A DNA stretch of 64,000 bases, from positions 11,541 to 75,540 of IMG/VR virus record IMGVR_UViG_3300037423_000296, one strand, 5' to 3'. Below are positions 14,888-47,559 of this stretch, piece after piece (position 1 is the first letter of the stretch; every line of letters begins with the position of its first letter). The notes beneath the pieces were generated by a model. The model saw nothing but the letters and a program-made list of their open reading frames with translations, did no database searches and was not told the origin of the DNA. A program made the position numbers and the translations under genes. Origin of the DNA: a virus. Lineage: Duplodnaviria; Heunggongvirae; Uroviricota; Caudoviricetes.

Positions 14888-14891
14888 TTGT

Positions 14892-14966: not shown

Positions 14967-14984
14967 CATTTGAAATCAGATTTC

Positions 14985-15909: not shown

Positions 15910-15911
15910 CC

Positions 15912-16136: not shown

Positions 16137-16324
16137 TCCTCCGGTGGATTTCTCTCGATGTATGTTTGGATTGTCGTATAGCCACCGAGAGCACTTCTCT
16201 TTGCGAAGAATTCCATCATCCGCATGTATTCTTCGGCACCCTCAATTGGCTCTTCCATGTCCCATTCAAGGAGCATGCGCATTCGCACTCTAGCCATTAC
16301 TCTTCCGGCTTCTCGCCGGTCCAC
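16133..16324 (-). CDS. hypothetical protein
   Basis: ORF track. Confidence 0.4.
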   Translation of the reverse strand: MDRREAGRVMARVRMRMLLEWDMEEPIEGAEEYMRMMEFFAKRSALGGYTTIQTYIERNPPEE

Positions 16325-16593: not shown

Positions 16594-16628
16594 GATGTCT
16601 CCCTACCTAGTGTTCCGTTGATGTATCT

Positions 16629-16657
16629 AGACTAACAGAGTCTAGCTTGAGAGTCAA
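16629..16657 (-). promoter_or_regulatory. promoter TTGACT-N17-TAGTCT
   Basis: consensus match. Confidence 0.55.
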
Positions 16658-16828
16658 TCGTTGTCGTACGGACCAAAAGTGCGGGTGACATCGAAGGTGA
16701 AAATCCGACCTTCCTCATCCTCAACGTGAACAACGGTAGGATGAAAGGCGTCAACCCGGCAGTTGAGATTCGGGTCGTCCTCATTGAGCAGTCGGACAAT
16801 CTTGGTGGCGAGCTTGATTCTGGTCATT
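16655..16828 (-). CDS. small hypothetical protein (57 aa)
   Basis: manual ORF MTRIKLATKIV.., GGGAG RBS. Confidence 0.4.
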
Positions 16829-16839
16829 GTAACTCCCTG

Positions 16840-17130
16840 TTATCGCGGGTCTTTGTGGTATTTGTAATAGAAAGCCAGGTTCGAACGAAACCGCTCTTTG
16901 TACGAGCCGATAGCTCTCTCTAGTTCGTTCTCTGGCCCGTCAGGCAATGCCTCATCCAGCTTATTGACAATGTTTGCCATGATGGCAACTGCTTCGGCTA
17001 GGTCGGAATTCGCAACCTGCCAAGCTTTTCCCTGCTCTATTGCGTAGTCCACCTCCCAGTGAAGTCGGTTCAATGCCGAACGTGCATCGCGTGCACGGAT
17101 ATCAACTCCTACGAATTGCATCTTCGGCAT
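16840..17130 (-). CDS. hypothetical protein
   Basis: ORF track. Confidence 0.5.
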   Translation of the reverse strand: MPKMQFVGVDIRARDARSALNRLHWEVDYAIEQGKAWQVANSDLAEAVAIMANIVNKLDEALPDGPENELERAIGSYKERFRSNLAFYYKYHKDPR

Positions 17131-17143
17131 TGTGACTCCTCAG

Positions 17144-17167
17144 CTAGGGTGTATAGGTACACCCTAG
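17144..17167. repeat. perfect 10-bp hairpin ctagggtgta-tagg-tacaccctag
   Basis: read in sequence, intergenic. Confidence 0.5.
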
Positions 17168-17185
17168 CCAAGAGAGCCGGGATTG

Positions 17186-17629
17186 TCAATAGGCGGCAAC
17201 CCACCGGATTAGAAAGCGAGGGTCGAAAGAGCGAGAGCACTTGCCACAAGCCCTATTGCCACTAGGCTTACGGTGCCGCTTGATGATGTGACCATTCGGA
17301 CAAAGCCCGTGCCACTTGTAAGACACCTCTACCTTGTCAGCGCTGCAACGCTTGCCGTCACAGCCAATTGAGAGAGCCTTTCGACGCCATACCGCATCGT
17401 GGCCGTGGGAAGCTCCTACAAGCGCGTGAGCGATTTCGTGGAGCATGGTGTTTCGTACTGCCTCTTCGGTACGCTGCACCGTGAGAACCCGGCTCAGAGA
17501 GATAAGCCTGTCAGAGTGGCGGCAGCGTCCAAACCGGCTTTTGGCGTTGTCCCACTCGAATCTCCAGCCGGTCAAGCCGTGTGCGGCCATCAGCAGTTTG
17601 GCCTGTCGCTCAGCTTGGAAAAGGTCCAT
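17186..17629 (-). CDS. SprT-like zinc metalloprotease
   Basis: HEIAHAL (HExxH) followed by Cys-rich zinc ribbon (CPNGH..CGKC). Confidence 0.75.
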   Translation of the reverse strand: MDLFQAERQAKLLMAAHGLTGWRFEWDNAKSRFGRCRHSDRLISLSRVLTVQRTEEAVRNTMLHEIAHALVGASHGHDAVWRRKALSIGCDGKRCSADKVEVSYKWHGLCPNGHIIKRHRKPSGNRACGKCSRSFDPRFLIRWVAAY

Positions 17630-17696
17630 CGTCTTGCCCTTTCGGTCGATTTGCTTGGTGTAAGCTTACCAGCCTAGAGAGTGTGGGTCAAGCCCT

Positions 17697-17873
17697 AATT
17701 TGTGCGGGTACTGGGATTCGAACCCAGATATCAGTACGCTCGACATTGCTAGCATTTAGTCGAGACTAGACTGAGACTGTGCACCATCTCTGCCTAGAGA
17801 ACCATACTGCATTCGACGGAATTGCTCCCTTAGCCTTGCTCTTCACAAGCGGCTTTACCATTTGCCTATACCC
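17697..17873 (-). ncRNA. tRNA-like element (7-bp acceptor GCGGGUA/UACCCGC, D-arm, T-arm CUGGG-UUCGAAU-CCCAG) with about 100-nt insertion; identity unresolved
   Basis: manual folding; perfect acceptor pairing 177 nt apart. Confidence 0.35.
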
Positions 17874-19306
17874 GCATGAAGGGCTAGATGACCCCCGTTA
17901 AGAACCCATCTAGCCCTAGTGCTCTTCCGCACGACGGTTTGAGCAGTTAACCAATCAGGCACCTGACAAATGCTATTGGTTCTCTGTGCTTCCGGTTGTC
18001 AGCCTCACAGAGTGGGCTTATGCCTCCGTTATCTCAACCACCATTAGCACGGAAGCTACACTAATGGTGTGTAAAAGTGAAGAGAGCCAGCCGACGCATT
18101 GCATCACAGCAAAGCATTCAGTCTAAATGCCTTTCATCGTTGACTAGACGATTAAGCTCTCCCCAACTTGCGCTCCCAGCGGGAGTTGAACCCGCGCTAA
18201 TACATTGACAATGTATCGTGCTGCCGTAACACTTTGAGAGCAATCGCCGGGTTTTGTTAAGTGGCTCCCTGCTAATACCCGGCTGATTAGCAGAAATCTT
18301 GAGCCGATGAGTGAATGCGCCTACCCATTCCACAGGGCTTTAGTACGCATTCGCTAGTGGAATTCCCTAACTCGCCTTGAGCGTCGGGCTAGCCTCACCA
18401 CGTGTTTTTGTCGTTGCCATGACTAGTATTGGCTTTCCCGTCTCGCCAGACGTTCCACGCAATGAGTAACCTTTGACGTTATCGCCGGTTGCGGTCCTTG
18501 AATGCTACCCGGTAAACCGGACATCTTCACCTAACCTCACTGCCGCTCTATGCCTAAGGATGCTATTTATACTCGCATAGACGAGTGTTGAGGCGCATTA
18601 GCTGTCGTATGCTATGCGAATTGATAGGTCAGTCCGGGGCTCGTTCTACAGGTTCCAGCCTTCGCCACTTCAACCCGCTTCCACCCTAACCATTCCATTC
18701 TGGCTCTCCGCACAAGGGACTAGAACCCAAGCTCTCCTCAACGTGTCACCCCATCCGGTTAATTCCGGTCCTGCCAACCCCAGTTAAAGGCTGACTATGC
18801 TTTCCTGCTTAACGGCAGGCCTATACACTAATGGGAAGCTTATGGGGTGGACGCTAAGACCAGTGTTCTTCATTCCGGGCGTACCGGACTTCCACTTACG
18901 TCTCTTATCTAACACAAGACCCCGCAGAATTTCGAATCGGTGCCAGTTCACCCTGTGATTCTCCATTCTGACCCCGGCTTTTTCTAGCAAGCGTGACCAA
19001 GCCACCGGGGATTTGCTTTTGCTGGTGTGGGTGGCGTTTATACACTCTCCCCTAATCCGGGCGTACCCAGAAGCCACATGCCCATCTTGTCTAGTGTTAG
19101 ACCAGCAATTCGCTATTCAGTTGTCAAGGTGTTGCCTAACTTCCTTGGTTTGTATATCTTAATCTTGCCTTGATTCTCGGAGCTTGTCAAGTAGCTGTGG
19201 GAAGTTTTTCATCATCTCGGCCCACTGCTCAGACTCAGCCTTGAGACACTTGGCACACCGCTCCTCGTGCCAACCAGTAGTCTCACTACCCGGCTTGCAG
19301 TCGCAG

Positions 19307-19540
19307 TCAGTCATCCCTATACCAGTCTTTCAGGAACAGAGTCCCTACCTTGTGATACCGCCTGCCATATCGCCACTGTACTTCGCAACCGGCAGGACAT
19401 TGAAGCTTTGTTCGTGGACCAGCACCCTTGTTGGAAAGGGTTCTATGCCAAGTGGCTACAGCATGGCACTCTGGACACCTGTGAGGCTTGTCCTCGTTGC
19501 GCTTAACCCACCGCATACTGAGCCAGCTTAGCCTCTGCAA
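19307..19540 (-). CDS. hypothetical Cys-rich (zinc-finger-like) protein
   Basis: ORF track; CPEC..CPAGC. Confidence 0.4.
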   Translation of the reverse strand: MQRLSWLSMRWVKRNEDKPHRCPECHAVATWHRTLSNKGAGPRTKLQCPAGCEVQWRYGRRYHKVGTLFLKDWYRDD

Positions 19541-19698
19541 TAGCCCGCAGGCTTTGCATGTGCCAATCCATGAGGTTGTGTACGTCTTGCGGGTGCATGT
19601 TCAGCTTCTTGGCTGTCATGGTCTCAGCTTCGGTTACTTCACAACCCATGTCGTTGTGGTAATCCTCGCAAACTGGAATGTTCATGAATCCTCCATCT

Positions 19699-19935
19699 TC
19701 ATAACCAACCCCGGCTTCTCAGTCGGGCGACAGCCTCTTTCTTCGTGGGGAACTCTTCCAACTCTTCCCATTCGCCATTAGGCGTTACGGGTCGCTGAGT
19801 GATTACCCAAACGGAAGATGTGGTCTCAACATATCGCTGCTCTTTGACCGACCATCCCTCACCAAGGGAGTCAATCCTCTCGACACGGTATTGTCCGTCG
19901 TTTGTCTGATAAACCCCCGATTCAATACGCTTCAT
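19699..19935 (-). CDS. hypothetical protein
   Basis: ORF track; AGGAGGA RBS. Confidence 0.5.
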   Translation of the reverse strand: MKRIESGVYQTNDGQYRVERIDSLGEGWSVKEQRYVETTSSVWVITQRPVTPNGEWEELEEFPTKKEAVARLRSRGWL

Positions 19936-19946
19936 GGATAATCCTC

Positions 19947-20150
19947 CTAAACCTTGAGAGTCTTGTCAAGGCCTTTAGCCTTCTTCAAGGCCAAATCCGC
20001 GACTTCTTCGTAGTCCCAACAGCTAAAACTCTCAGCCTTGACAGTCTCCATGGCTTCATCCCAAAGCTCATTCAGGTGGTCTACCTCGTACTGGTCGTTT
20101 CGCCTGCGAGCCTTCCAAATGAGATTGTTGAATTGCTCAAGCCGGGTCAT
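19947..20150 (-). CDS. hypothetical protein
   Basis: ORF track. Confidence 0.45.
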   Translation of the reverse strand: MTRLEQFNNLIWKARRRNDQYEVDHLNELWDEAMETVKAESFSCWDYEEVADLALKKAKGLDKTLKV

Positions 20151-20338
20151 GTCGTCAACTGCAATTCTGAGCCGTAGGCAACAAAAGTATCTGCGCCACT
20201 CATCCAGGGGTCGGTGTACCTCACGAGAAACAGGCGACCGGTGTACGCATCCTTAACTTCAGAGACGATTTCAACCAAACCCGCTGGAAAAGCCGGGTTG
20301 TTATTTTCATGCTGAAACAACAGCGCTGGCTCAGTCAA
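20147..20338 (-). CDS. hypothetical protein
   Basis: ORF track. Confidence 0.45.
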   Translation of the reverse strand: MTEPALLFQHENNNPAFPAGLVEIVSEVKDAYTGRLFLVRYTDPWMSGADTFVAYGSELQLTT

Positions 20339-20540
20339 TTGGCACCTCTGTGTCCAATTCGAAAACCCGTGCTCCCTGGCCTCCGTCGTAATGCTTCACC
20401 GGAACGAAAACCATCTTCTTTCCGTCCTCAACGCTCCACGCTACGACGGCATCGCCGGTAGCTTTCCAGTCACCGTGAATCCGACCCCTTTCGTCGCGAT
20501 TGGTGTAGGTGTTGCCGGTCTTGATGTCCTGAGCTTTCAT
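20331..20540 (-). CDS. hypothetical protein (start at MKAQDIK)
   Basis: ORF track trimmed. Confidence 0.4.
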   Translation of the reverse strand: MKAQDIKTGNTYTNRDERGRIHGDWKATGDAVVAWSVEDGKKMVFVPVKHYDGGQGARVFELDTEVPID

Positions 20541-20541
20541 G

Positions 20542-20847
20542 TCACTCTCCAAACGTCTTGAAGTGCGATTCAAGGAATGCGATTGATTCCTCAATGGTGC
20601 TACCAATGATACTACCACCACTGTGGGGTTCGCCGGTAGTGTAGTAGTAGGCAATTGCCCAGCTTTGAGACCAAACTGGATATGCCACCAACAATTGCGA
20701 TTTCCCCTCAGGTTGAAGGTTCGCATTGCAATTGACGTAGGCCGGTGCGTATCCAATCGTTGCCCGCGTCTTGCCGCCAGACTTCCGCACTGACGACTCT
20801 TCGAATTGTTGGATAAGCTCTTGAAGTCGGTCGAATTTGGTTGTCAT
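20542..20847 (-). CDS. hypothetical protein
   Basis: ORF track; GGAGGA RBS. Confidence 0.5.
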   Translation of the reverse strand: MTTKFDRLQELIQQFEESSVRKSGGKTRATIGYAPAYVNCNANLQPEGKSQLLVAYPVWSQSWAIAYYYTTGEPHSGGSIIGSTIEESIAFLESHFKTFGE

Positions 20848-20993
20848 TACTCCTCCTCAACTTCCTGAGCCGCGATTTCCTCGTCGGTCGGCGTGCACAG
20901 ATATCCCTTCATGCCATTCGCGTACTCAACCTCTACCCGCACCATTTTTCCTCCAGAGAGTAAGAGACCCTAGCTTGACTAGGTTAGGGGTAC

Positions 20994-21022
20994 AGCTTAG
21001 CGTACCGGGAGGAGCTTGTCAA
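20994..21022 (-). promoter_or_regulatory. promoter TTGACA-N17-TAAGCT
   Basis: consensus match. Confidence 0.5.
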
Positions 21023-21193
21023 CCAGTTGATTCTAAGTACCCACTCATGATAGATATAAACCCGCCACTGAAACGGGGGTTTGAAGTGGGGGCCGGTCAG
21101 CGGGACGGACATGAGGGGTTATGGGGGTCAACGTCCCGCCGACCGGTGATTAATAGTACACCAAGCGTGATTACTGGTCAAATGTGAATTTGG

Positions 21194-21394
21194 TTACAGA
21201 CCGTCACTAAGGTCGGCATGGTCCATCATACCTCGTGCCGTAGAACCCTCGTCCAGAACCCTCAGATAGCCGTCTGCGCCACGTTTGCACATCTCCCACA
21301 GTGGTGCCTCAGGACGGCTTCCCAGAGCCTTACGGACCAGCCAGTCGCCTCGGTGCCAGCCCTCATGGTCACGAGTCCAGGTAGTCTCCATCAA
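21194..21394 (-). CDS. hypothetical protein
   Basis: ORF track. Confidence 0.4.
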   Translation of the reverse strand: MMETTWTRDHEGWHRGDWLVRKALGSRPEAPLWEMCKRGADGYLRVLDEGSTARGMMDHADLSDGL

Positions 21395-21609
21395 TGCCGT
21401 CCTCGCGTAGCCTCGCTGTACGATTCGATGATGGTTTGCGCCTCTTCCAGCCCGCCCAAATGTGCGGACAATCGGGCAATCCTCATTCGGTCAACAAGAG
21501 TGACCTTCTCCTGCGCTTCGAGGGTTCGAACTTTCTTTCGAATTTTCTCGATGCGCGCTTGCAGTGCAGCTTCGGCCACCCCGTCAGGCATGGCGCTCCT
21601 TGTTGGCAC
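21391..21609 (-). CDS. hypothetical protein
   Basis: ORF track. Confidence 0.45.
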   Translation of the reverse strand: MPTRSAMPDGVAEAALQARIEKIRKKVRTLEAQEKVTLVDRMRIARLSAHLGGLEEAQTIIESYSEATRGRH

Positions 21610-21784
21610 GAGCCTCGGCCAGCTTGCCCTTCATGTACTGAAGAGCGGCGGTTCTGTTGGTGATTACCTCATCCTGAAACACGTACTTAGTCGGACCTTT
21701 CGGGTCAGGCTGAGTTGCGTAATGGAAAAGGTCTTGCCCCGTCAGGTTTACGTACTCCTGATTCAGAGCTTGGAATTCGCTCAT
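21584..21784 (-). CDS. hypothetical protein
   Basis: ORF track. Confidence 0.45.
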   Translation of the reverse strand: MSEFQALNQEYVNLTGQDLFHYATQPDPKGPTKYVFQDEVITNRTAALQYMKGKLAEARANKERHA

Positions 21785-21823
21785 GCCACCGGCTCCCTTC
21801 GACTGATTGGTACTTAGGGCTGA

Positions 21824-21853
21824 AGCCTATCAAGCGGGATAAGCCGATGTCAA
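21824..21853 (-). promoter_or_regulatory. promoter TTGACA-N18-TAGGCT
   Basis: consensus match. Confidence 0.5.
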
Positions 21854-21875
21854 GGCCTGTCTCAGCATTCAGTCG

Positions 21876-22094
21876 TCATACAACTTCAATGGGCGGGCAG
21901 TAAATGTGTATGCCACTGCCATTTGGATACGGGGTGTGTACGCAGTGATTCTTGGTCTTGTAAATTACCGCCCGGATTTGGTCATCAATCGGACCATCAA
22001 ACGTCTCAAGGTCAACAACCGATGCAAGCATAATGAGAGCCGTAACCTCTTTTCCGGTGAATACGGTGTCTCGTGAACGATTCCAGAACATCAA
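21876..22094 (-). CDS. hypothetical protein
   Basis: ORF track. Confidence 0.45.
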   Translation of the reverse strand: MMFWNRSRDTVFTGKEVTALIMLASVVDLETFDGPIDDQIRAVIYKTKNHCVHTPYPNGSGIHIYCPPIEVV

Positions 22095-24656: not shown

Positions 24657-25400
24657 TTACCGGCCCTTCTGCTTGAGCGTACTATCCAAGGAAACCTTAC
24701 CGGAGAATGCAGCCCTCATCAAGCCGGGGAACTGATTCAAGGTAATGATTGACGCAACGGTGTTGTGTCGGAACATCTTGGAAAGCTCGTCGGCAACCCG
24801 CTCATCTGCGACAGACTCAACCCCGACATGGACAGCAGGCTCACGGAGAGCGTCAGCCAAATTTATGTCCAGAGCGAATCCCTTGGTGACCGTGAATCGA
24901 ATTGCCCTGAGAGCCCTCAGCGGGTCTTCTGACAGCCTTTCTAGTGGGTCACCTACAGCCCTAACAATCCGGCGCTTGATGTCCCTAAAGCCGTCGTGAG
25001 GGTCAATGAAGTTACCAGTGCTATCCTTGGCAATGGCATTCATGGTGAAATCCCGCCGCTTTAGGTCGTCGCCAAGCTTACCCGGCTCAACCTTGTCAGG
25101 CCTGCGTCCGTCCGTGTAATCCGACTCCTTGCGAGCCAGCACAAAGTCGGCAGCCATGCCAGGGTAAGTCGGGTGATTCTTCGGGAATTGTCCACGAGCC
25201 GTCAAGAATTCGGGGGTCGTCACGAAAATGGTGAATCCCTGCTTCTTCAGCATGTCCACCATCGTTTGAAACGGATTGAATTCCAGCCCGCCAATTGGGT
25301 TCCAATCGTACTGAGCGAGAACGCAAGTGAAATCAATGTCCTTCGATGGAATACCCAGGATTTCATCCCGAACACAACCGCCTACTTCAAAGAGTTGCAT
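24657..25400 (-). CDS. cca: tRNA nucleotidyltransferase (CCA-adding enzyme / polyA polymerase head domain)
   Basis: GGCVRDEILG..DIDF and RRDFTMNAIA motifs. Confidence 0.85.
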   Translation of the reverse strand: MQLFEVGGCVRDEILGIPSKDIDFTCVLAQYDWNPIGGLEFNPFQTMVDMLKKQGFTIFVTTPEFLTARGQFPKNHPTYPGMAADFVLARKESDYTDGRRPDKVEPGKLGDDLKRRDFTMNAIAKDSTGNFIDPHDGFRDIKRRIVRAVGDPLERLSEDPLRALRAIRFTVTKGFALDINLADALREPAVHVGVESVADERVADELSKMFRHNTVASIITLNQFPGLMRAAFSGKVSLDSTLKQKGR

Positions 25401-31732: not shown

Positions 31733-31978
31733 TCACCGAATGGCGACGGCAAGCTCCCGAGCGGTAGCCTTCGGCAGGCGACCCTTCGACGGAACCTCCA
31801 GACCCAGGAAGTCGCCCAGTTCGCGAGCGGTCTTCGGCTGAGTCACAAGGTAGTCAGCGATGACATCTACGGAAACCCGCCCAATGCTGCCGACAGCCTT
31901 TCCAGCCTCACGAGCGTGCTCACGAGCCGCGTTCGCGATGTTGGAGGTGTCCAGTACGAGAGTAGTGTACTTAGCCAT
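31733..31978 (-). CDS. hypothetical protein
   Basis: ORF track. Confidence 0.5.
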   Translation of the reverse strand: MAKYTTLVLDTSNIANAAREHAREAGKAVGSIGRVSVDVIADYLVTQPKTARELGDFLGLEVPSKGRLPKATARELAVAIR

Positions 31979-33727: not shown

Positions 33728-33943
33728 CTACCCAATAACTAGCAAATCCCTCGGTGCAAACCAGAGAGTGGAAATGCTACGACCAATCTCGTCTCTCGAC
33801 TCTTCAGAGAGGACTACCTTGACGGTTCGCTCGGGGTTGATTGGCCCTCTGTCACGCATCTCGCGGACGTGGCCGAAAAGTGTCTTGGTACCCCACTGAG
33901 ATGTCCATTCTGGTGTGGTTCTGACTCTATCTCCGATGTTCAT
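33728..33943 (-). CDS. hypothetical protein
   Basis: ORF track. Confidence 0.45.
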   Translation of the reverse strand: MNIGDRVRTTPEWTSQWGTKTLFGHVREMRDRGPINPERTVKVVLSEESRDEIGRSISTLWFAPRDLLVIG

Positions 33944-34176
33944 TCTACCTCCACCCGAGTGATTGCTCCACCGTCGTCAATGTAGAAGAAGCCCCCTTCC
34001 TTAGACCCGCCGACTGCCCGGTTACCATGCAAGTCGGGGTAGGCAAGGATGTCTTGAACAGTACAGCCGTTCTCTTTGTCCTGCTCTCGACGGGCATCCT
34101 CGAAGTTCCAAAAGGCTCGTGGTCCTGAGTTCCGACCTTCATAAATCCAAACTATAGCCAAATTGTTATGCCTCAA
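33940..34176 (-). CDS. hypothetical protein
   Basis: ORF track. Confidence 0.45.
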   Translation of the reverse strand: MRHNNLAIVWIYEGRNSGPRAFWNFEDARREQDKENGCTVQDILAYPDLHGNRAVGGSKEGGFFYIDDGGAITRVEVE

Positions 34177-34571
34177 ATCTTGTCGTTATAGAAATCATCA
34201 AGTAGTGAGTCAATGTCCATTACCTCTTCGCCCTCAGGCACCAGAACGCGGGTCTGGTCAAGGAAGAGGCTCACCTCATTGAGCGGGTACAGAACGTTCT
34301 GGTAGCCGCCGTCGAATCGTAGGTGCATGCCTACCATTAGCTGTGTGACCGAAAAACTGATTGAACCTTCACCGGCATATCCCATTGCTCGTTCACGGTT
34401 CACTACCGGCTGTACAGCTTCGCTCAGTAGCTCCCGGCCAAAGATAATGTCCGCGCCGGTCACGTTCTGTAGCCTAATCTCGAATGGTCGAGTCTCGTCG
34501 TAAATGAAATTGGTAACCATTTTCTGGTCACCGCCGACGCCTACATGACCTGTAATTGGGCGTGCAAACAT
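34173..34571 (-). CDS. SsgB/SsgA-like protein (SALP family) homolog
   Basis: recalled alignment to S. coelicolor SsgB: YDETRPFEI.. vs YDTADPYAV.., IIFGRELLSEAV vs WVFARDLLAEGL, SLFLDQTRVLVPEGEE vs SFLKRTDAAVPPGTE; ATG start chosen (track used GTG upstream). Confidence 0.6.
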   Translation of the reverse strand: MFARPITGHVGVGGDQKMVTNFIYDETRPFEIRLQNVTGADIIFGRELLSEAVQPVVNRERAMGYAGEGSISFSVTQLMVGMHLRFDGGYQNVLYPLNEVSLFLDQTRVLVPEGEEVMDIDSLLDDFYNDKI

Positions 34572-34798
34572 GCCCCAGTTCCCCACCTCTCGTGTCCCCT
34601 GCTCCCCCACCTTGCCCTCTGCTGGACACGATGCTGGGAGGAATCCTACCTGTTAAACGGTTTGAGCCGCAAAGCGTTACGTAACGCTTAGGTCTCGGCC
34701 TGTCCACAGCCTGTGGACATCCTATGTCACCTGTAGTGACACTACAAGTCCACGGAGTGACAAGACCGGGTTCCTTTACGAAACCCGGTCTACGACAA

Positions 34799-35686
34799 TT
34801 ACTTACTTGGTGCTACGATGCCAACACCCGAAGAGCCAGAGCAATTCCAGCCAGCGGGAAGAGGACCATTCTTGTTCTGGTCCCAGTTATTCGTGACATC
34901 AAGGCAAAAGCGCTGGTTAGCCTGAGGAGTCAGAATGCCAGACTTCTCACGAATCTCAGCAGTCTTGGCCTCAGTCAAAGCCTTTTGACGCTCAAGCTCA
35001 GCACGAGCCAAATCCTGTTGAGCAATGACAACCTTCTCAATGCTGGCCTGCGTCTTCTCGTCCAAGCCTACATTGGTAACCCGGACATTATCAACTTCAA
35101 GACCATACTTCGCAAAGTCCAAAGAAAGCTGAGTCTTGACGGCTTCAGAAATCTCATTTCCCTTTGCCTGAGCATCAGTCGGAATGTACTTGCCAGCAGC
35201 ATCACGAACTGCTGCCTCGGCACTGTTCTGCACAAGTTCCTTCTGAACCCGCTTAAAGGACTTGTAACGCTCCCACAGAGCCTTGGCTTCCTTGTCAGAA
35301 ATCTTCCAAGAGACGGTAGCAGCAATCGAACCCTGACCGCCGCCCTTGTAAGTGACATTGACGCGGTTCACGTGCACAACGTTGTCATCATTGTCGTCAC
35401 CACCATCAAGGTAGAGAGTCTGAATCTGAGTGCTGAACTCTTCGACCGAAGAAGTCGGGTTGGTCCAGTGGAATCCGTTGTCCAGCGTCTTCTGGTACTT
35501 CCCGAAGCCGGTCTGAATTCCGACAGACCGGGCTGAAACAGTGGTAGCCGAACAGATACCAAAGACCAGCAACCAGAGCATAATAACCGCTCCAGCCGCA
35601 ATCTTACCACCGGTCGTGACGAACGCAAAGCCAATTGATACGACAAATGCAATCGCCAGGATGATGGTCAGAATGATGAACAGCAA
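34799..35686 (-). CDS. SPFH/band-7 (stomatin/prohibitin/HflK-like) membrane protein
   Basis: N-terminal TM segments then band-7 core and coiled-coil (AQQDLARAELERQKALTEAK). Confidence 0.8.
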   Translation of the reverse strand: MLFIILTIILAIAFVVSIGFAFVTTGGKIAAGAVIMLWLLVFGICSATTVSARSVGIQTGFGKYQKTLDNGFHWTNPTSSVEEFSTQIQTLYLDGGDDNDDNVVHVNRVNVTYKGGGQGSIAATVSWKISDKEAKALWERYKSFKRVQKELVQNSAEAAVRDAAGKYIPTDAQAKGNEISEAVKTQLSLDFAKYGLEVDNVRVTNVGLDEKTQASIEKVVIAQQDLARAELERQKALTEAKTAEIREKSGILTPQANQRFCLDVTNNWDQNKNGPLPAGWNCSGSSGVGIVAPSK

Positions 35687-35965
35687 TTAAAACTCCTTAC
35701 ATTTTGGGCAGGCCACTGTATAGCCGCCGATTGTTTGGGGGTCATGCTTATAACCTACGAAGGCATTCTCAGACAATAGTTCATGCTCATTGTCCCAATC
35801 TCTTCGTAGCAAATCCCGCGCCATCTTGTCGGCACGCTCCTGCTTGAGCTTCCGAGACATCTCTTTAGCTTTATCTTTGGTCTTCTTCATTTGAAGACCC
35901 CAGTATACTGCAAATCCGGTCCCGCCTGTGAGGACGACACCGAGACTCACTAGTCCTTGTCGCAT
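35687..35965 (-). CDS. membrane protein
   Basis: ORF track; N-terminal TM. Confidence 0.45.
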   Translation of the reverse strand: MRQGLVSLGVVLTGGTGFAVYWGLQMKKTKDKAKEMSRKLKQERADKMARDLLRRDWDNEHELLSENAFVGYKHDPQTIGGYTVACPKCKEF

Positions 35966-36308: not shown

Positions 36309-36632
36309 CTATCGGCGGATTTCGGAAGCTAGCTGAAGTGCTGTACGAGCCTTAATTTCTCGACCCTCAACACCATTACGGGCGTCCTCATAGAACCAAA
36401 CCTGTGGCACTGACATGATGCCAAATTGCTCCTTGACACCTTCAACGTGGTCAACATCAGCGTCAAGGAAAGTGTAATCAGGCATGGTCTGAGCCGCTGC
36501 CTTTACGTGTGGCGCAAGTCTCTGACAAGGGACGCACCAATCAACTGCTGAGAAGGTTACCACAACATTCGGTGTAGTATCAAGTACATCCAGCAATTCG
36601 TCTAGACTCTCTACCTTGATAACCTCACTCAA
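36309..36632 (-). CDS. trx: thioredoxin
   Basis: WCVPC active-site motif in thioredoxin-length protein. Confidence 0.85.
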   Translation of the reverse strand: MSEVIKVESLDELLDVLDTTPNVVVTFSAVDWCVPCQRLAPHVKAAAQTMPDYTFLDADVDHVEGVKEQFGIMSVPQVWFYEDARNGVEGREIKARTALQLASEIRR

Positions 36633-37035
36633 AGTGAACCCGCACCTCCTTCAGCACACCGTTCGGGAATAGCCGCTCGAAATCAGCCTTGGCGTCTTCC
36701 AACGAAGTTCCCTCGAAGGTGTACTCTACTGGAGAGTGGCCCACAAGCACAAACTTGTGAGTGTTGCTCTCGGCAGCCTTACCGGCTCCGATGAAGGTCA
36801 AGCTACTGACATTCATGAACGTGTTGAACTTTCCCTTGATATTCGTGTTGTAATAGTTACCGGCAGACCCAGCCTTGATGAATGCGTCCCAAGTCCACGA
36901 AGGAACCTTGGAATATCCATAAAGACCGTTGCCAGAGAACTTCACGAATAGATTCTGCTCGCCTCGGTGATAGTAAGCCACGCTGACAAGCGTGCTGTCC
37001 GGACTGAAGCTATCCGTGTATTTGTAATCTGTCAC
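36625..37035 (-). CDS. KTSC-domain-like protein
   Basis: VKFSGNGLYGYSKVP..AGSAGNYYNTNIKGKF resembles KTSC domain (recalled). Confidence 0.45.
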   Translation of the reverse strand: MTDYKYTDSFSPDSTLVSVAYYHRGEQNLFVKFSGNGLYGYSKVPSWTWDAFIKAGSAGNYYNTNIKGKFNTFMNVSSLTFIGAGKAAESNTHKFVLVGHSPVEYTFEGTSLEDAKADFERLFPNGVLKEVRVHFE

Positions 37036-41962: not shown

Positions 41963-42213
41963 TTACGGTACGGCACCGGGTTTGTAGAGCCCTGAATGTG
42001 ACACTTGGTACCGGTCAGTCTAATTGCATCTCGCAGCTTGTATAGGTAATCAGCTAGGCCTAGTTTCTGTGGTTCGCTGAATGATTCAATATTGTCTTTG
42101 TAAACCCGCAACTCAAGGTAATCTTGGTGCTCAACCATATCAACAAAGAACCCCCGATATGGACACTTTGTTGTCTTGAAGATACGCTGAACCTCAGATG
42201 TGTAAAGGCTCAT
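41947..42213 (-). CDS. hypothetical protein
   Basis: ORF track. Confidence 0.45.
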   Translation of the reverse strand: MSLYTSEVQRIFKTTKCPYRGFFVDMVEHQDYLELRVYKDNIESFSEPQKLGLADYLYKLRDAIRLTGTKCHIQGSTNPVPYRKWEGN

Positions 42214-42548
42214 GATACCTTCCTCTCAATTGCATCCCAAATTTCTTGAGTTTTGTGTGAATTCTTGTTCTTGTCTGGCTTACCGGAGCCATTCCAGTAA
42301 ACGCCACCCCAAACGCCAAACTCGCCATTCTGGAGTCCAGCAAAAAAGCAGTCTTTAATGACTGGGCATCCGAGACACACCGCGTCGGCTGCCTTAGCAA
42401 TCTCGGTGTCAGATTCGTATTTGTCGCAGAAAATTTCCGGCTCAAGATGTTGGCAGGCAGCCAAGTGATGCCATTCGAATTCTTCCGGGTCAACTCCGAG
42501 ACTTTCTAGCAGTGAAGACATCCTTCTTGCTAACCTCCCAATTGCCAT
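42210..42548 (-). CDS. whiB: WhiB-like (Wbl) Fe-S transcription factor
   Basis: four Cys (C..C..CLGCP..C) plus GVWGG motif. Confidence 0.8.
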   Translation of the reverse strand: MAIGRLARRMSSLLESLGVDPEEFEWHHLAACQHLEPEIFCDKYESDTEIAKAADAVCLGCPVIKDCFFAGLQNGEFGVWGGVYWNGSGKPDKNKNSHKTQEIWDAIERKVS

Positions 42549-44575: not shown

Positions 44576-44851
44576 TTAAACCCAGTCGTTTTCGTTGATG
44601 CCTTCCTTGCCATGTTTGCACAAGTCTACATGACGACCACACCTTGAGCAAATGGCTTCCTGAGATGCGTAGTAGTGCTTAGGGGGAGCGCTAGGCGACT
44701 CCCCCATTACACTCTCAGCCTTATCAGGCTCAGTAGTCGTCATCTTCGTCGTCGTCTTCATCGTACTCTGGACACTCGTAGTACTCGTGGTCATCGTCAC
44801 CGCAATTCTCACAGTACAAAGTGTCGAAGTCGTTCTCGTCCAACTCGCCAA
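44576..44851 (-). CDS. hypothetical Cys-containing protein (true start probably internal)
   Basis: ORF track. Confidence 0.35.
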   Translation of the reverse strand: MASWTRTTSTLCTVRIAVTMTTSTTSVQSTMKTTTKMTTTEPDKAESVMGESPSAPPKHYYASQEAICSRCGRHVDLCKHGKEGINENDWV

Positions 44852-45680
44852 CTACATTGGCATAATCGGACTTGAGCAGAGGAGCGCTGACCTCTTCATC
44901 GGCAACGTCAATTACGACGTAGCGACAAACGCGAATCTTCGCCTCGTTGTGCTCAGTCGGCACAGAGACAACATCGCGAGGGTTGATAGCAACCTTCACA
45001 CGACCATTTCCGTAACCACGGGCATAGTCGAACGTTCCGGCATGCAGACCAGTCGAGCATCCCTCGGCAGGGTTGAATTCAACCTCGCTACGCGGCATCT
45101 CAACCGTGTCACCAATGCGCTGGGGAATCTGCTGGTTCTCGAACAACTCGCCATTGACGATTGCCGTACCAGAGTGCCACGACTTGTAGACCTTGCCGTT
45201 CTCATCCTCCTCAACGTAGAGACCCTTGTAGGCAACAAGGTCACCGTCAGAGGTAATCGTGATTGACGGACGAGCCTTGACCCAGCCGTAAAGCTGCTCA
45301 CGGCTGTGAGGCTCAGGGTTGAGAGACACCTTGTCTAGGAAGTTGACCAAAGGCATGAAGTCTTCGTCAGCCTCAAGCATTCGCAGAATGTGGTCAGTGA
45401 TGGCGTTGTCAACGTGGTCACCGTCGAAGTATACCTTGCCATTGGCAACGGAGATTCGGTCGGTCAGACGCTCAAAACGCTTTGCCACCTCTTCAGCCGG
45501 GTCAAAGAGTCGGACGACAGACTCATCACCGGAAGTAATCCCGGCAACAATCTGGTCCCAATTCTTGTGGTCCTGGTTTGCAACGTACATCTCACCGTCA
45601 ATAAAAGCGGTGACGCTGGACTCATTTCCAACGCTTACGAGATTATACTTGATTGTTCTTCTCCTTCTGGTAAATTGCAT
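44730..45680 (-). CDS. rIIB: rIIB-like protein (by size and position immediately downstream of rIIA-like)
   Basis: 316 aa, overlaps rIIA-like end; acidic C-terminus; no motif-level confirmation. Confidence 0.5.
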   Translation of the reverse strand: MQFTRRRRTIKYNLVSVGNESSVTAFIDGEMYVANQDHKNWDQIVAGITSGDESVVRLFDPAEEVAKRFERLTDRISVANGKVYFDGDHVDNAITDHILRMLEADEDFMPLVNFLDKVSLNPEPHSREQLYGWVKARPSITITSDGDLVAYKGLYVEEDENGKVYKSWHSGTAIVNGELFENQQIPQRIGDTVEMPRSEVEFNPAEGCSTGLHAGTFDYARGYGNGRVKVAINPRDVVSVPTEHNEAKIRVCRYVVIDVADEEVSAPLLKSDYANVVGELDENDFDTLYCENCGDDDHEYYECPEYDEDDDEDDDY

Positions 45681-47559
45681 TCATGTATAGGTAGACATGC
45701 TCTTTATTGCTACCACAGTTACCCCTGGCAAGCGGGTACTTATTGAATGGGTCGGTAATATCTTCCGACTTAATCTCTCCGTGAGCGTACTCGATTGCCC
45801 TGGCAAATTCACACGCCGCGTACCAATCCTTCATGGTGTCGGTGAGCGGTTCCTGCTTCGCATTGCATGCATTGATGAATGCGACCATCTCAGGGTCGTC
45901 AATGCGAGTGGGGTCAAGCTTCTGAGCGTTGACTCTGGAGTAGTAATCTACGTCAGTCATTCTACGCCTATCGGTCTTGGTAAGTCCAGCCTTCGCGAAC
46001 ATTACCTTGTCCTTAATCCACTGCTCCAAATCCTCAGAGTCAGGGTTGGCTTTCTTGAACCTATCAAGCTCATTCTTGTACAGAATGACGATTTCGTAAT
46101 CCTTGAGAATAGTGGTGAGGTTCTTCCACTTAATCTTCCGGCGACCCGGCACAATGTACATGACATTCTTGGTGTCATCCAAATCAGCCTTGGTTGTCGT
46201 GTATCCGTGCGCAGTCAGGGTGTTGTACTCAACAACCTTCTTGTCAGACTTGGCACGAACTAGCTTGATAGCCTTGATAGTCTCAAAGGGCACCGTCCGA
46301 ATTTCGGCCAGACGCTTCGTGTCAGGGTGCTTCTCCATCAAGAATACCTTGTACGGACGCTCGCCTGCCGGAAGATTCTCAATGTAGTGACGAATCTTCT
46401 GTCGGTAGTTCGTAGGAAGCTTCTCACCAGTAAACCCAGTGATGGTCAGATATTGAGAGAAATTCTTCCAGTCGATGTGCCTCGGGAAGGTTACTGCATG
46501 ACGCTCATGGCTGTGAGCGAAAGACATCGCTTCCGGCGCTTCACCGTAATTGAATTCCCACGTCTGCTTCAGTTCCTCACCCTTGTAGGTGTAATTGTGA
46601 GAAATCATGAATGAACGCTTGTCATGAGTCTTGAGAGCTTCAAGGTAGGTGGGCTGGGCATCAATCTCGGCCTGGATTTGGTTGGCAATTCCTGCCTTAG
46701 CCTCTGCCGACAGCTTGGAGATTGTCTCCTTGGTCTTGTCGGTGTACATCAATTCCTCGCGGTTCGGAGGAAATGCCACATCACCAATCTCGACAAAGGC
46801 TACCAAGTGATAATCGCCGTAGTGTTCGGCAAGACCGTCAGCCTTGTAGGGAACATTTCCCATAACTACGTACGATGTACCCTGACCGGGAAGAGCGACA
46901 ATGTTGTCAGTGACCCACAAAGCATCCTTGTGGTCTCCGATGAATTCCGGCTGCTTGTCGTCAACAAGAACAGTACCCGGAGTCCAGTACTTGAAGAAAT
47001 GCTCCACCCTTGCAGTGAAGTCACTAGTGTACTTGACGGGAATGATGATTTCCACACCAGACGGCTCATCGGTAATCGACGTGTCAACAATCTCCATTAC
47101 GCCAGAGCCGTACTCATCCTTGCTCACCATTACAAGAATCTTCACACCTTGGTGAATGGATACAATCTGGAATTGAGCCGTGTAAGTCAAGCCAGACTTA
47201 CTTCCAAGACCCAGCATTCCAACCTGAGAATCAGTATCTCTCTTGGTTGAATTCCAGTATTGAGAGTAGACGTTCTCAATGAAATCTACAGACATTCCAT
47301 TGCCAAAATCCCGAATTTTGAAGAACGGGCTAAGCGCGCTGGGACTGTGAATCTCGATTGGAACATTTGCCTTGCCAGCGTCAATATGAGCATCACGAGC
47401 ATTCGTGCTGTATTCTCGAATGATTGCCTTGATTGGGTCTGCGTACATATCTGTCAAGGTGCTCATGGCGAATTGTAGACTGTGCATATCCATCGTCATC
47501 TCAATACGCTTACCGCCGAGATTGCCGCTGGTTTGAATGTCTAGTGGTGCTGGACGCAT
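45643..47559 (-). CDS. rIIA: rIIA-like protein with N-terminal GHKL (HATPase_c) ATPase domain
   Basis: N box REYSTNARDA, G1 box IRDFGNGMS, G2 box GMLGLGSKSG. Confidence 0.75.
   Translation of the reverse strand: MRPAPLDIQTSGNLGGKRIEMTMDMHSLQFAMSTLTDMYADPIKAIIREYSTNARDAHIDAGKANVPIEIHSPSALSPFFKIRDFGNGMSVDFIENVYSQYWNSTKRDTDSQVGMLGLGSKSGLTYTAQFQIVSIHQGVKILVMVSKDEYGSGVMEIVDTSITDEPSGVEIIIPVKYTSDFTARVEHFFKYWTPGTVLVDDKQPEFIGDHKDALWVTDNIVALPGQGTSYVVMGNVPYKADGLAEHYGDYHLVAFVEIGDVAFPPNREELMYTDKTKETISKLSAEAKAGIANQIQAEIDAQPTYLEALKTHDKRSFMISHNYTYKGEELKQTWEFNYGEAPEAMSFAHSHERHAVTFPRHIDWKNFSQYLTITGFTGEKLPTNYRQKIRHYIENLPAGERPYKVFLMEKHPDTKRLAEIRTVPFETIKAIKLVRAKSDKKVVEYNTLTAHGYTTTKADLDDTKNVMYIVPGRRKIKWKNLTTILKDYEIVILYKNELDRFKKANPDSEDLEQWIKDKVMFAKAGLTKTDRRRMTDVDYYSRVNAQKLDPTRIDDPEMVAFINACNAKQEPLTDTMKDWYAACEFARAIEYAHGEIKSEDITDPFNKYPLARGNCGSNKEHVYLYMNAIYQKEKNNQV

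What the first reader, a model, noticed from the sequence alone, without database searches (positions are those of the whole stretch)
34173..34571. Phage-encoded SsgB/SsgA-like (SALP) protein
The 133-aa product aligns by recall with Streptomyces SsgB across its length (YD..P, the FxRxLLxE block, and ..FL..T..VP.G.E near the C-terminus). SALPs recruit FtsZ to sporulation septa. To my knowledge they are confined to morphologically complex actinomycetes. A phage copy suggests manipulation of host cell division or sporulation. It also implies a developmental actinomycete host despite the phage's moderate GC.
Basis: partly seen in the sequence, partly recalled or inferred. Interest (0 to 1): 0.8.

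Follow-up and report, generated by a model that had tools for sequence, protein, structure and literature searches.

The report
Phage copy of sporulation-division protein SsgB
A large tRNA-rich phage, distantly related to known Streptomyces phages, carries a real but very divergent copy of the actinomycete SsgA/SsgB cell-division protein, probably to tamper with host sporulation septation; such phage copies are already on record, so this is a new member of a known kind.

Summary
Window 34173-34571 (minus strand) encodes a 132-aa acidic protein of the SsgA-like (SALP) family. It matches Pfam PF04686 over the full profile, only just above threshold (25.1-25.5 vs 25 bits), but all 9 members of its clade match. 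A clade profile finds the SsgB crystal structures, and the top seven PDB matches of an AlphaFold model are all SsgB (TM 0.66-0.73). Most SALP hallmark residues are kept, including the R55/V115/G118/E120 network. The gene is under purifying selection (dN/dS 0.15).

The window is phage: rIIA/rIIB, ThyX, a CCA enzyme, about 32 tRNAs, a tmRNA and WhiB. It is a distant relative of the roughly 130-kb Streptomyces phages of Stanwilliamsviridae, which have similar GC.

Novelty is modest. An ssgA homologue was reported in Streptomyces phage Dagobah in 2020. I also found SALPs at a similar genome position in 38 Stanwilliamsviridae records. GenBank calls them hypothetical; UniProt already names one as SsgA family.

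New here is a rare, tight metagenomic clade. It has invariant N- and C-termini (MFAxxIxG, LDDFYND[KR]I), has lost W51 and D70, and has a conserved promoter-like, G-rich leader.

Function is inferred: interference with host SsgA/SsgB/FtsZ-driven sporulation septation.

The parts
34173..34571 (-). SALP (SsgA-like protein) coding sequence, 132 aa, pI 4.4
   Evidence: ORF. Pfam PF04686 match. Profile match to the SsgB structures 3cm1 and 6slc. SsgB fold. dN/dS 0.15 against L005. It is the only SALP in the window.
34224..34265 (-). Codons for residues 103-116, FLDQTRVLVPEGEE: end of helix alpha2 plus the alpha2-alpha3 loop. V111, P112, G114 and E116 correspond to SsgB V115, P116, G118 and E120.
   Evidence: Column comparison with 60 SALPs of cellular-like composition. 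Role of these residues in SsgB from PMC8061694.
34176..34205 (-). Codons for the clade-invariant C-terminal helix tail LLDDFYNDKI (residues 123-132). L124 to D130 and I132 are invariant; residue 123 is L or M and residue 131 is K or R.
   Evidence: Conservation across sequences only 45-52% identical overall. Predicted helix 120-129.
34548..34571 (-). Codons for the clade-conserved N-terminal strand MFAxxIxG (residues 1-8)
   Evidence: M1, F2, A3, I6 and G8 are invariant. Predicted strand beta1, residues 2-10.
34643..34672 (-). Promoter-like element: TTGCGG (34667-34672), an 18-nt spacer, then TAGGAT (34643-34648)
   Evidence: CAGGTAGGATTC is invariant in all five aligned upstream regions and has no other exact copy in the window. 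The resemblance to the actinobacterial TANNNT -10 box is my own knowledge. The E. coli-type consensus scan did not call it.
34674..34687 (.). Perfect 14-bp palindrome GCGTTACGTAACGC just upstream of the -35-like box; a possible operator
   Evidence: The core CGTAACG is invariant in relatives. There is a single exact GTTACGTAAC in the window.
34573..34617 (-). G-rich 5' leader abutting the start codon, with a G3 run followed by G5, G4, G4 and G4 runs; candidate RNA G-quadruplex and/or ribosome-binding region
   Evidence: It holds the only motif of four runs of at least four G in the whole window on either strand. At least four G-runs are kept in L003-L006 despite divergence. RNAalifold gave no convincing hairpin alternative.
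34799..35686 (-). Context: SPFH/Band 7 membrane protein (295 aa), the gene immediately upstream
   Evidence: Pfam Band_7 E 2e-29. phrog_200 E 2.4e-49. It lies upstream of the SALP in L003-L005.
35687..35965 (-). Context: 92-aa protein with a predicted N-terminal membrane segment, conserved partner upstream of the SPFH gene
   Evidence: ORF. A 92-aa gene sits in the same position in L003, L004 and L005. No family hit.
36309..37035 (-). Context: KTSC-domain protein (36625-37035) and thioredoxin (36309-36632)
   Evidence: Pfam KTSC E 2.4e-14 and Thioredoxin E 6.6e-14. Same order in L003-L005. Patelgo also has a thioredoxin upstream of its SALP.
33728..34176 (-). Two small downstream ORFs (about 73-78 aa and 71 aa), tightly packed behind the SALP and probably co-transcribed
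   Evidence: ORFs. Equivalent 73-aa and 71-aa genes follow the SALP in L005 and L006. No family hits.
31733..31978 (-). Context: Lsr2 DNA-binding-domain-like protein (81 aa), sub-threshold
   Evidence: Pfam Lsr2_DNA-bd E 4.9e-5, 23 bits against a cutoff of 26.9. Lsr2-like genes lie downstream of the SALP in Patelgo, Faust, Wakanda and BillNye.
42210..42548 (-). Context: WhiB-like regulator, a marker of an actinobacterial host
   Evidence: Pfam Whib E 7.3e-12, 46 bits against a cutoff of 23.6. WhiB lies at the same relative position in L003 and L004.
44730..47559 (-). Context: rIIB (44730-45680) and rIIA (45643-47559), phage hallmark genes
   Evidence: PHROG rIIA E 1.2e-90 and rIIB E 6.1e-58. 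rIIA is 35-36% identical to Streptomyces Stanwilliamsviridae phages.

Best explanation
The gene encodes a genuine, functional, phage-borne member of the SsgA-like protein (SALP) family. It sits in the small-gene, non-structural arm of a large lytic-type actinophage, alongside WhiB, an Lsr2-like protein, rIIA/rIIB and the tRNA array. It appears to have its own host-type promoter.

Shown:
- Family membership, the SsgB fold, retention of the residue network that fixes helix alpha3 in SsgB, purifying selection, and conserved gene order within its clade.
- Homology to SALPs at a similar genome position in Streptomyces phages of Stanwilliamsviridae.

Inferred:
- During infection of a sporulating actinomycete, most likely Streptomyces or a close relative, the protein enters the host SsgA-SsgB-FtsZ pathway that positions sporulation septa.
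- It keeps the SALP scaffold and the alpha2-alpha3 geometry, but its surface has diverged strongly (about 20% identity to SsgB) and it has clade-specific invariant termini.
- The most likely action is therefore as a decoy or dominant-negative. It would co-assemble with host SALPs or bind their partners, and so delay or misdirect developmental septation. That would keep hyphae in the vegetative, phage-permissive state.

Identity as a SALP has confidence of about 0.95. The specific interference mechanism has about 0.4.
For: - Identity: Pfam SsgA match, profile match to the 3cm1 and 6slc SsgB structures, and Foldseek top seven hits all SsgB.
- Viral structural matches: the BFVD top hits are Streptomyces-phage SALPs, including BillNye, which UniProt names as SsgA family.
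- Link to cultured phages: hhalign probability 97.6% against Patelgo gp216, which itself scores 52 bits on Pfam SsgA.
- Hallmark residues (SsgB numbering): Y29, D30, P34, R55, L57, L58, G67, G69, F107, V115, P116, G118, E120, D125 and D127 are all kept.
- Relevance of those residues: in SsgB the R55/V115/G118/E120 network sets the alpha3 angle. E120G gives ectopic septa and weaker SsgA binding (PMC8061694).
- Functional constraint: dN/dS 0.15 and invariant termini.
- Expression signals: a conserved promoter-like block and leader.
- Selective rationale: sporulation at the plaque rim gives transient phage resistance, and development is repressed early in infection (PMC10117723).
- Precedent: actinophages carry whiB, ftsK, parB and ssgA homologues (PMC7650747, PMC10117723).
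- Host range signal: SALP hits in 50,697 phage records are Streptomyces phages, apart from one unverified fragment.
Against: - No experiment or interaction prediction was possible. The direction of the effect, inhibition or activation, is not addressed by any result here.
- The FtsZ-binding surface of SsgB is unknown, so its conservation could not be checked.
- The clade has lost two residues conserved in at least 85% of the cellular-like SALPs compared: W51 is I or M, and D70 is S, H or W. This could mean a changed partner.
- Host SsgB is almost invariant within Streptomyces (PMC2440963), whereas the phage copies are very divergent. That argues against precise mimicry.
- The host is not identified.
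- The single-sequence Pfam score is borderline.
- Four of the five AlphaFold models had low confidence, with mean pLDDT of 41-66.
Confidence: 0.45

Rival explanations
1. Activator mimic. The phage SALP works like SsgA or SsgB. It would recruit FtsZ or mark sites of cell-wall remodelling, driving extra or ectopic septation or local peptidoglycan turnover. That could compartmentalise the infected hypha or help lysis and release.
For: Cellular SALPs are positive regulators. SsgB recruits FtsZ, and other SALPs control septum synthesis, spore-wall thickening and autolytic separation (PMC2440963, PMC8061694). The core SALP residues and the E120 network are kept.
Against: Sporulation and maturation reduce susceptibility to phage, so promoting developmental division looks costly for a lytic phage. 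There is very low identity to the near-invariant host SsgB, and W51 and D70 are lost. NCBIfam places it in no SsgA-G equivalog.
Confidence: 0.25
2. Repurposed scaffold. The SALP fold has been co-opted for a phage-specific job unrelated to host division. Examples would be binding another phage protein, such as the adjacent SPFH membrane protein, or acting as an anti-defence factor. The invariant termini would be the new interface.
For: The clade-specific invariant N- and C-termini and the EIRLQNV strand are not conserved in cellular SALPs. Adjacency to the SPFH and 92-aa membrane-protein pair is constant in the clade. W51 and D70 are lost.
Against: The whole region is syntenic in this clade, so adjacency carries little information. 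Stanwilliamsviridae SALPs have no SPFH annotated within the roughly 3-6 kb of flank examined. The protein is acidic (pI 4.4), which argues against the nucleic-acid-binding version suggested by the whirly-like fold. SALP-bearing phages in the phage collection are Streptomyces phages, as expected if the target is host-specific.
Confidence: 0.2
3. Recently captured, decaying host gene (a passenger) with no role in infection.
For: The Pfam score is borderline and two hallmark residues are lost.
Against: dN/dS is 0.15. Position and regulatory blocks are conserved across clade members only 45-52% identical. GC matches the phage rather than a 70%-GC host. Homologues occupy a similar position throughout Stanwilliamsviridae. 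The scan of 185,579 species genomes confirmed no cellular close relative.
Confidence: 0.03
4. Chance resemblance: not a SALP at all.
For: The single-sequence Pfam score is only 0.1-0.5 bits above threshold. phmmer of the single sequence against the PDB did not find SsgB.
Against: All 9 clade members hit PF04686. The clade profile hits SsgB structures. Fold searches hit SsgB and phage SALPs. hhalign gives 97.6% against a strong SALP. Most of the 34 conserved family columns are kept.
Confidence: 0.02

Closest known systems
SsgB of Streptomyces coelicolor (PDB 6slc/6suj) and Thermobifida fusca (PDB 3cm1), the FtsZ-recruiting archetype of the SALP family
   Same: Same Pfam family and size class. 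Same fold (TM 0.66-0.73). Acidic. Keeps Y29, D30, P34, R55, LL57-58, G67, G69, F107, V115, P116, G118, E120 and the DxD start of helix alpha3.
   Different: Only 18-23% identity in the structural alignments. W51 and D70 are replaced. The termini are clade-specific and invariant. It is encoded by a 50%-GC phage rather than at the conserved chromosomal ssgB locus. It is not an NCBIfam equivalog of any SsgA-G protein. FtsZ recruitment is untested.
Streptomyces phage Dagobah gp31 (QMP84409), annotated 'SsgA family sporulation/cell division regulator' (Hardy et al. 2020, PMC7650747)
   Same: A phage-encoded SALP noted as a possible manipulator of host development. Function untested in both.
   Different: Dagobah is a 47-kb, 70%-GC phage whose SALP is much closer to cellular SsgB (75 bits on Pfam, 38% identity to SsgB). 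That suggests a separate and more recent capture. The genome context is unrelated.
SALPs of Stanwilliamsviridae Streptomyces phages (e.g. Patelgo gp216, Faust gp210, Wakanda gp230, BillNye YP_009622766)
   Same: Same phage type: roughly 130 kb, about 50% GC, many tRNAs, rIIA/B, WhiB and Lsr2. The SALP lies in the same small-gene arm, upstream of Lsr2-like genes, and in Patelgo downstream of a thioredoxin. Homologous at hhalign probability 97.6%.
   Different: 27% identity. Those proteins keep W51 and D70 and score 44-60 bits on Pfam. They lack the MFA and LDDFYNDKI termini. No SPFH gene is annotated within the roughly 3-6 kb of flank examined. GenBank calls them hypothetical; UniProt names the BillNye one as SsgA family.
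Phage-encoded copies of host developmental regulators, e.g. WhiB of mycobacteriophage TM4
   Same: Same strategy: a phage copy of a host development or division regulator. WhiBTM4 blocks septation by interfering with host whiB2, as cited in PMC7650747.
   Different: Unrelated protein family. It acts at the level of transcription, not divisome assembly.
Phage FtsZ-targeting division inhibitors (lambda Kil, T7 Gp0.4); from my own knowledge, not tested here
   Same: A possible functional analogy: a small early phage protein that perturbs Z-ring assembly.
   Different: No sequence or fold relationship. Those are not derived from host division proteins.

Membership tests
SALP / Pfam PF04686 (SsgA family) | Full-length match to the family HMM at or above the curated threshold | tested here: met
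   25.1-25.5 bits against a gathering score of 25, profile positions 3-98 of 98. All 9 clade members match, best E 9e-9. The margin is small for the single sequence.
SALP / Pfam PF04686 (SsgA family) | SsgB-type alpha+beta ('whirly-like') fold in a single domain of about 120-150 aa | tested here: met
   AlphaFold2 model with pLDDT 79.9 and pTM 0.75. Foldseek PDB top seven hits are all SsgB, E 2e-7 to 2e-5, TM 0.66-0.73. A profile of the clade hits 3cm1 and 6slc.
SALP / Pfam PF04686 (SsgA family) | Family-wide conserved residues | tested here: inconclusive
   Most of the 34 columns conserved in at least 60% of 60 SALPs of cellular-like composition are kept. These include R55, G67, G69, F107, V115, G118 and E120, each conserved in at least 92% of that set. 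W51 (to I or M) and D70 (to S, H or W) are not kept.
SALP / Pfam PF04686 (SsgA family) | Occurrence restricted to morphologically complex actinomycetes (PMC2440963) | tested here: not met
   The gene is on a phage. The host is only inferred to be such an actinomycete, from WhiB and from its Streptomyces-phage relatives. This is a distribution feature, not a molecular one, and phage exceptions are already known.
SALP / Pfam PF04686 (SsgA family) | Interaction with FtsZ, other SALPs or SepG, and control of sporulation septation | not testable with these tools
   No interaction prediction or experiment was available.
SsgB, SsgA or SsgD-G orthologue groups (NCBIfam equivalogs) | Score above the equivalog cutoff | tested here: not met
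   The only NCBIfam match is SsgD, at 15 bits against a cutoff of 185.
SsgB, SsgA or SsgD-G orthologue groups (NCBIfam equivalogs) | Chromosomal ssgB-type locus (SCO1540 homologue upstream, tRNA-Val nearby; PMC2440963) | tested here: not met
   The neighbours are phage genes: SPFH, thioredoxin, KTSC and small unknown ORFs.
Phage SALPs of Stanwilliamsviridae-like actinophages | Detectable homology to the phage SALPs | tested here: met
   BLASTP E 8e-8 and 27% identity against Patelgo gp216. hhalign probability 97.6%. BFVD hits to TunaTartare, BillNye and Ibantik.
Phage SALPs of Stanwilliamsviridae-like actinophages | Same genome neighbourhood: small-gene arm, Lsr2-like gene downstream, thioredoxin upstream, rIIA/B, tRNAs | tested here: met
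   Window: thioredoxin at 36309-36632, SALP, Lsr2-like at 31733-31978. Lsr2-like genes lie downstream of the SALP in Patelgo, Faust, Wakanda and BillNye, and Patelgo has a thioredoxin upstream. The Lsr2 match in the window is sub-threshold.

The most novel reading that the evidence does not exclude
SALP genes may be an old, conserved host-takeover component of a whole lineage of large tRNA-rich actinophages, comprising Stanwilliamsviridae and uncultured relatives such as this one. They would have radiated into phage-specific subfamilies. The clade found here keeps the alpha3-positioning network but has new invariant termini. It would act as a dominant-negative anti-sporulation factor that blocks SsgB/FtsZ ladder formation, and its translation would be gated by an RNA G-quadruplex over the ribosome-binding site. 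That would be the first phage division modulator built from the host's own Z-ring recruiter in a multicellular bacterium.
Probability: 0.25. Interest if true: 0.7.

Novelty: new member of a known kind. Interest (0 to 1): 0.42.

Why it matters
How phages cope with, or exploit, the developmental programme of filamentous sporulating bacteria is largely open. Sporulation at the plaque rim gives Streptomyces transient resistance, and development is repressed early in infection (PMC10117723), but no phage effector acting on the sporulation divisome has been characterised. A phage SALP is a ready-made candidate.

SsgB's partners and its FtsZ-binding surface are also still undefined. A naturally diverged set of phage SALPs keeps the E120/R55 network but changes the surface. 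That set could serve as a mutational map of what matters for SALP function, and as a tool to perturb septation.

The practical point from this work is annotation. At least 38 deposited Streptomyces phage genomes carry an SsgA-family gene that GenBank labels hypothetical, and PHROGs has no SALP family.

Tried and rejected
- Megablast of 10 kb around the gene, and tblastn of the protein, against 50,697 GenBank phages found nothing. The link to known phages only appeared through rIIA and through SsgB and Patelgo queries.
- PHROGs gave no hit for this protein or for any known phage SALP.
- phmmer of the single sequence against the PDB gave no SsgB hit. A profile was needed.
- Scans of IMG/VR, GTDB species genomes and JGI metagenome contigs with clade patterns confirmed no relative. 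This is despite JGI contigs being known to carry the gene, so these scans under-sample.
- Cluster look-ups of the next-nearest relatives gave no useful names.
- The longer GTG start at 34610 was rejected, because the upstream stretch has frame-breaking indels.
- The E. coli-consensus promoter scan found nothing upstream of the gene, and the two terminator-like hits lie inside the coding sequence.
- Rfam found nothing credible in the leader, and RNAalifold found no covarying hairpin.
- A nucleic-acid-binding role, suggested by the whirly-like fold, was considered and down-weighted because the protein is acidic.
- MT838510, 'Bacteriophage sp.' from human faeces, is a 70%-GC unverified 5-kb fragment. 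I did not count it as a phage SALP.
- The amino-acid-composition proxy for phage versus cellular origin of metagenomic SALPs is only a rough indication.
Full report
**1. The observation**

The ORF lies exactly at 34173-34571, on the minus strand. It runs from ATG at 34571 to TGA at 34175-34173 and encodes 132 residues. A longer reading from GTG at 34610 exists on paper. All eight database homologues begin MFA, and the upstream stretch differs between relatives by indels that break the frame, so ATG 34571 is the start.
- YD..P at residues 24-29
- F.R.LL.E at residues 44-51
- FL..T..VP.G.E at residues 103-116

**2. Is it a SALP?**

Pfam PF04686 (SsgA) scores E 1.7e-5 and 25.1 bits against a gathering score of 25, over profile positions 3-98 of 98. 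Five independent lines make the assignment secure:
- All nine members of its clade hit PF04686, best E 9e-9.
- A profile of the clade finds the two solved SsgB proteins: T. fusca 3cm1 (E 1.4e-5) and S. coelicolor 6slc (E 9.3e-5).
- An AlphaFold2 model (pLDDT 79.9, pTM 0.75, from only nine sequences) has SsgB chains as its seven best PDB matches. These score E 2e-7 to 2e-5 with TM 0.66-0.73, and the next hit is four orders of magnitude worse.
- Against viral models, the four significant hits include three named Streptomyces-phage proteins. One of them, from BillNye, is named 'SsgA family sporulation/cell division regulator' by UniProt.
- I compared 34 columns conserved in 60 SALPs of cellular-like composition. 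In SsgB numbering, the clade keeps Y29, D30, P34, R55, L57, L58, G67, G69, F107, V115, P116, G118, E120, D125 and D127. It has replaced two residues conserved in at least 85% of that set: W51 by I or M, and D70 by S, H or W.

NCBIfam places the protein in none of the SsgA-G equivalogs; the only match is SsgD at 15 bits against a cutoff of 185. It is therefore a family member but not an orthologue of any cellular SALP.

**3. What carries it**

The window is phage DNA.
- All ten large ORFs tested hit PHROGs, including ThyX, RNase H, tRNA nucleotidyltransferase, rIIA and rIIB.
- There are about 32 tRNA genes and a tmRNA.
- A WhiB gene lies at 42210-42548, and a sub-threshold Lsr2-like gene at 31733-31978.
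- rIIA is 35-36% identical to that of roughly 130-kb Streptomyces phages of Stanwilliamsviridae, although there is no nucleotide-level match.
- The window has 50.6% GC, and the sampled Stanwilliamsviridae loci have 48-55%. The moderate GC is therefore typical of this group of Streptomyces phages and does not argue against an actinomycete host.

**4. Relatives of the protein**

The protein belongs to a small, tight clade. Eight proteins are 45-98% identical to it. They form only three representatives with E below 1e-30 among 1.84 billion. There is then a gap to E 4e-14, and 344 proteins reach E 0.001 or better.

All four long contigs carrying clade members are about 50% GC. The two longest (L003, L004) show this gene order, and the shorter L005 and L006 show the parts they cover:
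- WhiB, then KTSC, thioredoxin, a small gene, a 92-aa membrane protein and an SPFH/Band 7 protein
- an optional 158-162-aa gene
- the SALP, then small ORFs, DUF932 and, in L003, L005 and L006, a CCA-adding enzyme

The window has the same order.

No clade member was confirmed in the scans of IMG/VR or of 185,579 species genomes.

Using SsgB and then Patelgo gp216 as queries, I found SALP homologues in 38 Streptomyces phage records of Stanwilliamsviridae. GenBank labels them hypothetical protein or leaves them unannotated. Four representatives score 44-60 bits on Pfam SsgA. They are homologous to the window protein: BLASTP E 8e-8 at 27% identity, and hhalign probability 97.6%. They sit in a comparable position, with Lsr2-like genes downstream and, in Patelgo, a thioredoxin upstream. 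This points to an old SALP gene in this phage lineage.

Dagobah's copy is different. It comes from a 70%-GC, 47-kb phage and scores 75 bits on Pfam SsgA, so it looks like a separate capture.

**5. Evidence that the gene is in use**

- dN/dS against the 86%-identical relative is 0.15, with dS 0.50.
- The N-terminus MFAxxIxG (predicted strand beta1) and the C-terminal tail LDDFYND[KR]I (predicted helix alpha3) are conserved in sequences that are otherwise only 45-52% identical.

The 130 nt upstream contain blocks that are invariant across the clade:
- A palindrome, GCGTTACGTAACGC, at 34674-34687.
- TTGCGG, an 18-nt spacer, then TAGGAT (34672-34643). This resembles an actinobacterial housekeeping promoter; that comparison is my own knowledge. 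Its core, CAGGTAGGATTC, has no other exact copy in the window.
- A G-rich leader running up to the ATG. It holds the only motif of four runs of at least four G anywhere in the 64 kb on either strand, and at least four G-runs persist in every relative.

The last feature may be an RNA G-quadruplex or simply a G-rich ribosome-binding region. That is conjecture. RNAalifold and Rfam gave nothing further.

**6. How it most likely works**

Established knowledge:
- SsgB recruits FtsZ to future sporulation septa, and SsgA positions SsgB. Other SALPs govern later cell-wall steps (PMC2440963, PMC8061694).
- In SsgB, R55, V115, G118 and E120 hold helix alpha3 at a fixed angle.
- E120G, G118V and V115G give tilted or longitudinal septa. 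E120G weakens the interaction with SsgA.
- FtsZ binding survives even deletion of the C-terminus.
- SsgB is nearly invariant within Streptomyces, which suggests a tightly co-evolving partner.

The phage clade keeps exactly this alpha3-positioning network and an invariant alpha3. It is otherwise about 20% identical to SsgB and has lost W51 and D70.

Sporulation at the infection front gives transient resistance, mature mycelium is less susceptible, and development is repressed early in infection (PMC10117723).

Putting these together, I think the most likely role is interference. The phage SALP would join or compete with the host SsgA/SsgB/FtsZ assembly and delay or misplace developmental septa, keeping the hypha permissive.

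The shown steps are family, fold, residue retention, selection and context. The inferred steps are the host, the timing of expression, the partner and the direction of the effect.

Rivals:
- A true activator mimic that promotes septation or wall remodelling.
- A repurposed scaffold with a phage-specific partner, for which the new invariant termini and the adjacent SPFH gene are weak hints.
- A decaying passenger gene, disfavoured by selection and synteny.
- A chance match, excluded.

A nucleic-acid-binding role, suggested by the whirly-like fold, is unlikely for a protein of pI 4.4.

**7. Comparison with what is known, and novelty**

SALPs are described as exclusive to morphologically complex actinomycetes (PMC2440963). 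A phage ssgA homologue was nevertheless reported in Streptomyces phage Dagobah in 2020 and is cited since as a candidate manipulator of development (PMC7650747, PMC10117723). GenBank annotates that gene as SsgA family, and UniProt names the BillNye homologue likewise. In the searchable library I found no functional study of any phage SALP. I also found no paper noting SALPs in Stanwilliamsviridae.

So a phage-encoded SALP is a known kind. What is new here:
- A rare, highly divergent clade at the edge of HMM detection, with its own invariant features and conserved regulatory leader.
- The finding that SALPs recur at a similar genome position in many of the large Streptomyces phages while GenBank labels them hypothetical. 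PHROGs has no family for them.

**8. Verdict**

Function is inferred only. I rate it a new member of a known kind, with an interest score of 0.42. It would not surprise a specialist, but it is a good experimental handle on phage control of Streptomyces development.

Noticed in passing
window 18533-18586 (-): Match to the Pistol self-cleaving ribozyme (RF02679) above Rfam's gathering score, 37.9 against 34.5 bits. The conserved 5' hairpin and the AUAAAUA linker are well aligned. It sits about 290 nt from an isolated tRNA-Asp at 18170-18241.
   Followed up: partly
window 40217-62166 (-) and 54712-55109 (-): A very large translation-related set: about 32 tRNA genes (ARAGORN 32; Rfam 31, including one at 53037-53102 that ARAGORN missed) and a tmRNA. 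ARAGORN reads an unusual tag for the tmRNA, ATDNIDAEYEALCAEYDLASV. There is also a CCA-adding enzyme at 24657-25400.
   Followed up: partly
window 34573-34617 (-): The only motif of four runs of at least four G in the whole 64 kb, on either strand. It lies in the SALP leader, directly against the start codon, and the G-runs are conserved in relatives. It is a candidate RNA G-quadruplex controlling translation.
   Followed up: partly
window 34572-34798; L005 2730-3218; L003 8922-9398: Relatives L003, L005 and L006 carry an extra 158-162-aa gene, with no Pfam hit, between the SPFH gene and the SALP. The window and L004 lack it cleanly, while the SALP upstream block is retained.
   Followed up: partly
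window 34799-35965 (-): An SPFH/Band 7 membrane protein (295 aa; phrog_200, labelled 'lipoprotein') preceded by a 92-aa membrane protein. The pair is conserved upstream of the SALP in L003-L005. It resembles a flotillin/NfeD-type pair; that comparison is my own knowledge and is untested.
   Followed up: partly
window about 8500-22000: This stretch has few convincing ORFs, slightly higher GC (0.51-0.56) and repeated leader-like modules. Examples are 11163-11257, 11749-11821 and 12401-12427, each with a CCTTTCCTGTGTTGGCTG box next to a hairpin. They look like reiterated promoter and ribosome-binding cassettes for small minus-strand genes.
   Followed up: partly
window 57057-58307 (-): A 416-aa protein with an N-terminal hydrophobic segment and a C-terminal glycoside hydrolase family 12 domain (Pfam E 1e-9), embedded in the tRNA array.
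   Followed up: no
window 63439-63939 (-): An ORF matching phrog_850, 'RNA-binding protein' (E 9e-34), with a vWA-like DxSxS start (MLAVDVSGSM). It may be a Ro/TROVE-type protein associated with the tRNA region.
   Followed up: no
L001 5944-6324 (Patelgo gp216); L007 2986-3363; L008 3001-3387; L009 3001-3375: 38 deposited Streptomyces phage records carry an SsgA-family gene (Pfam 44-60 bits for the four tested). GenBank labels it hypothetical protein or leaves it unannotated. PHROGs v4 has no SALP family.
   Followed up: yes
L010 (MT838510.1) 4610-4906: An 'UNVERIFIED Bacteriophage sp.' 5-kb fragment from human faecal samples encodes a 70%-GC SALP 45% identical to SsgB. It is more likely an actinomycete or prophage fragment than a gut phage.
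   Followed up: partly
proteins P0009-P0155: By amino-acid composition, roughly a third or more of the metagenomic SALP representatives look low-GC and phage-like rather than actinomycete-like. Several begin MF[AST]Q like the window clade. A broad phage SALP radiation may exist, but context was not checked.
   Followed up: partly
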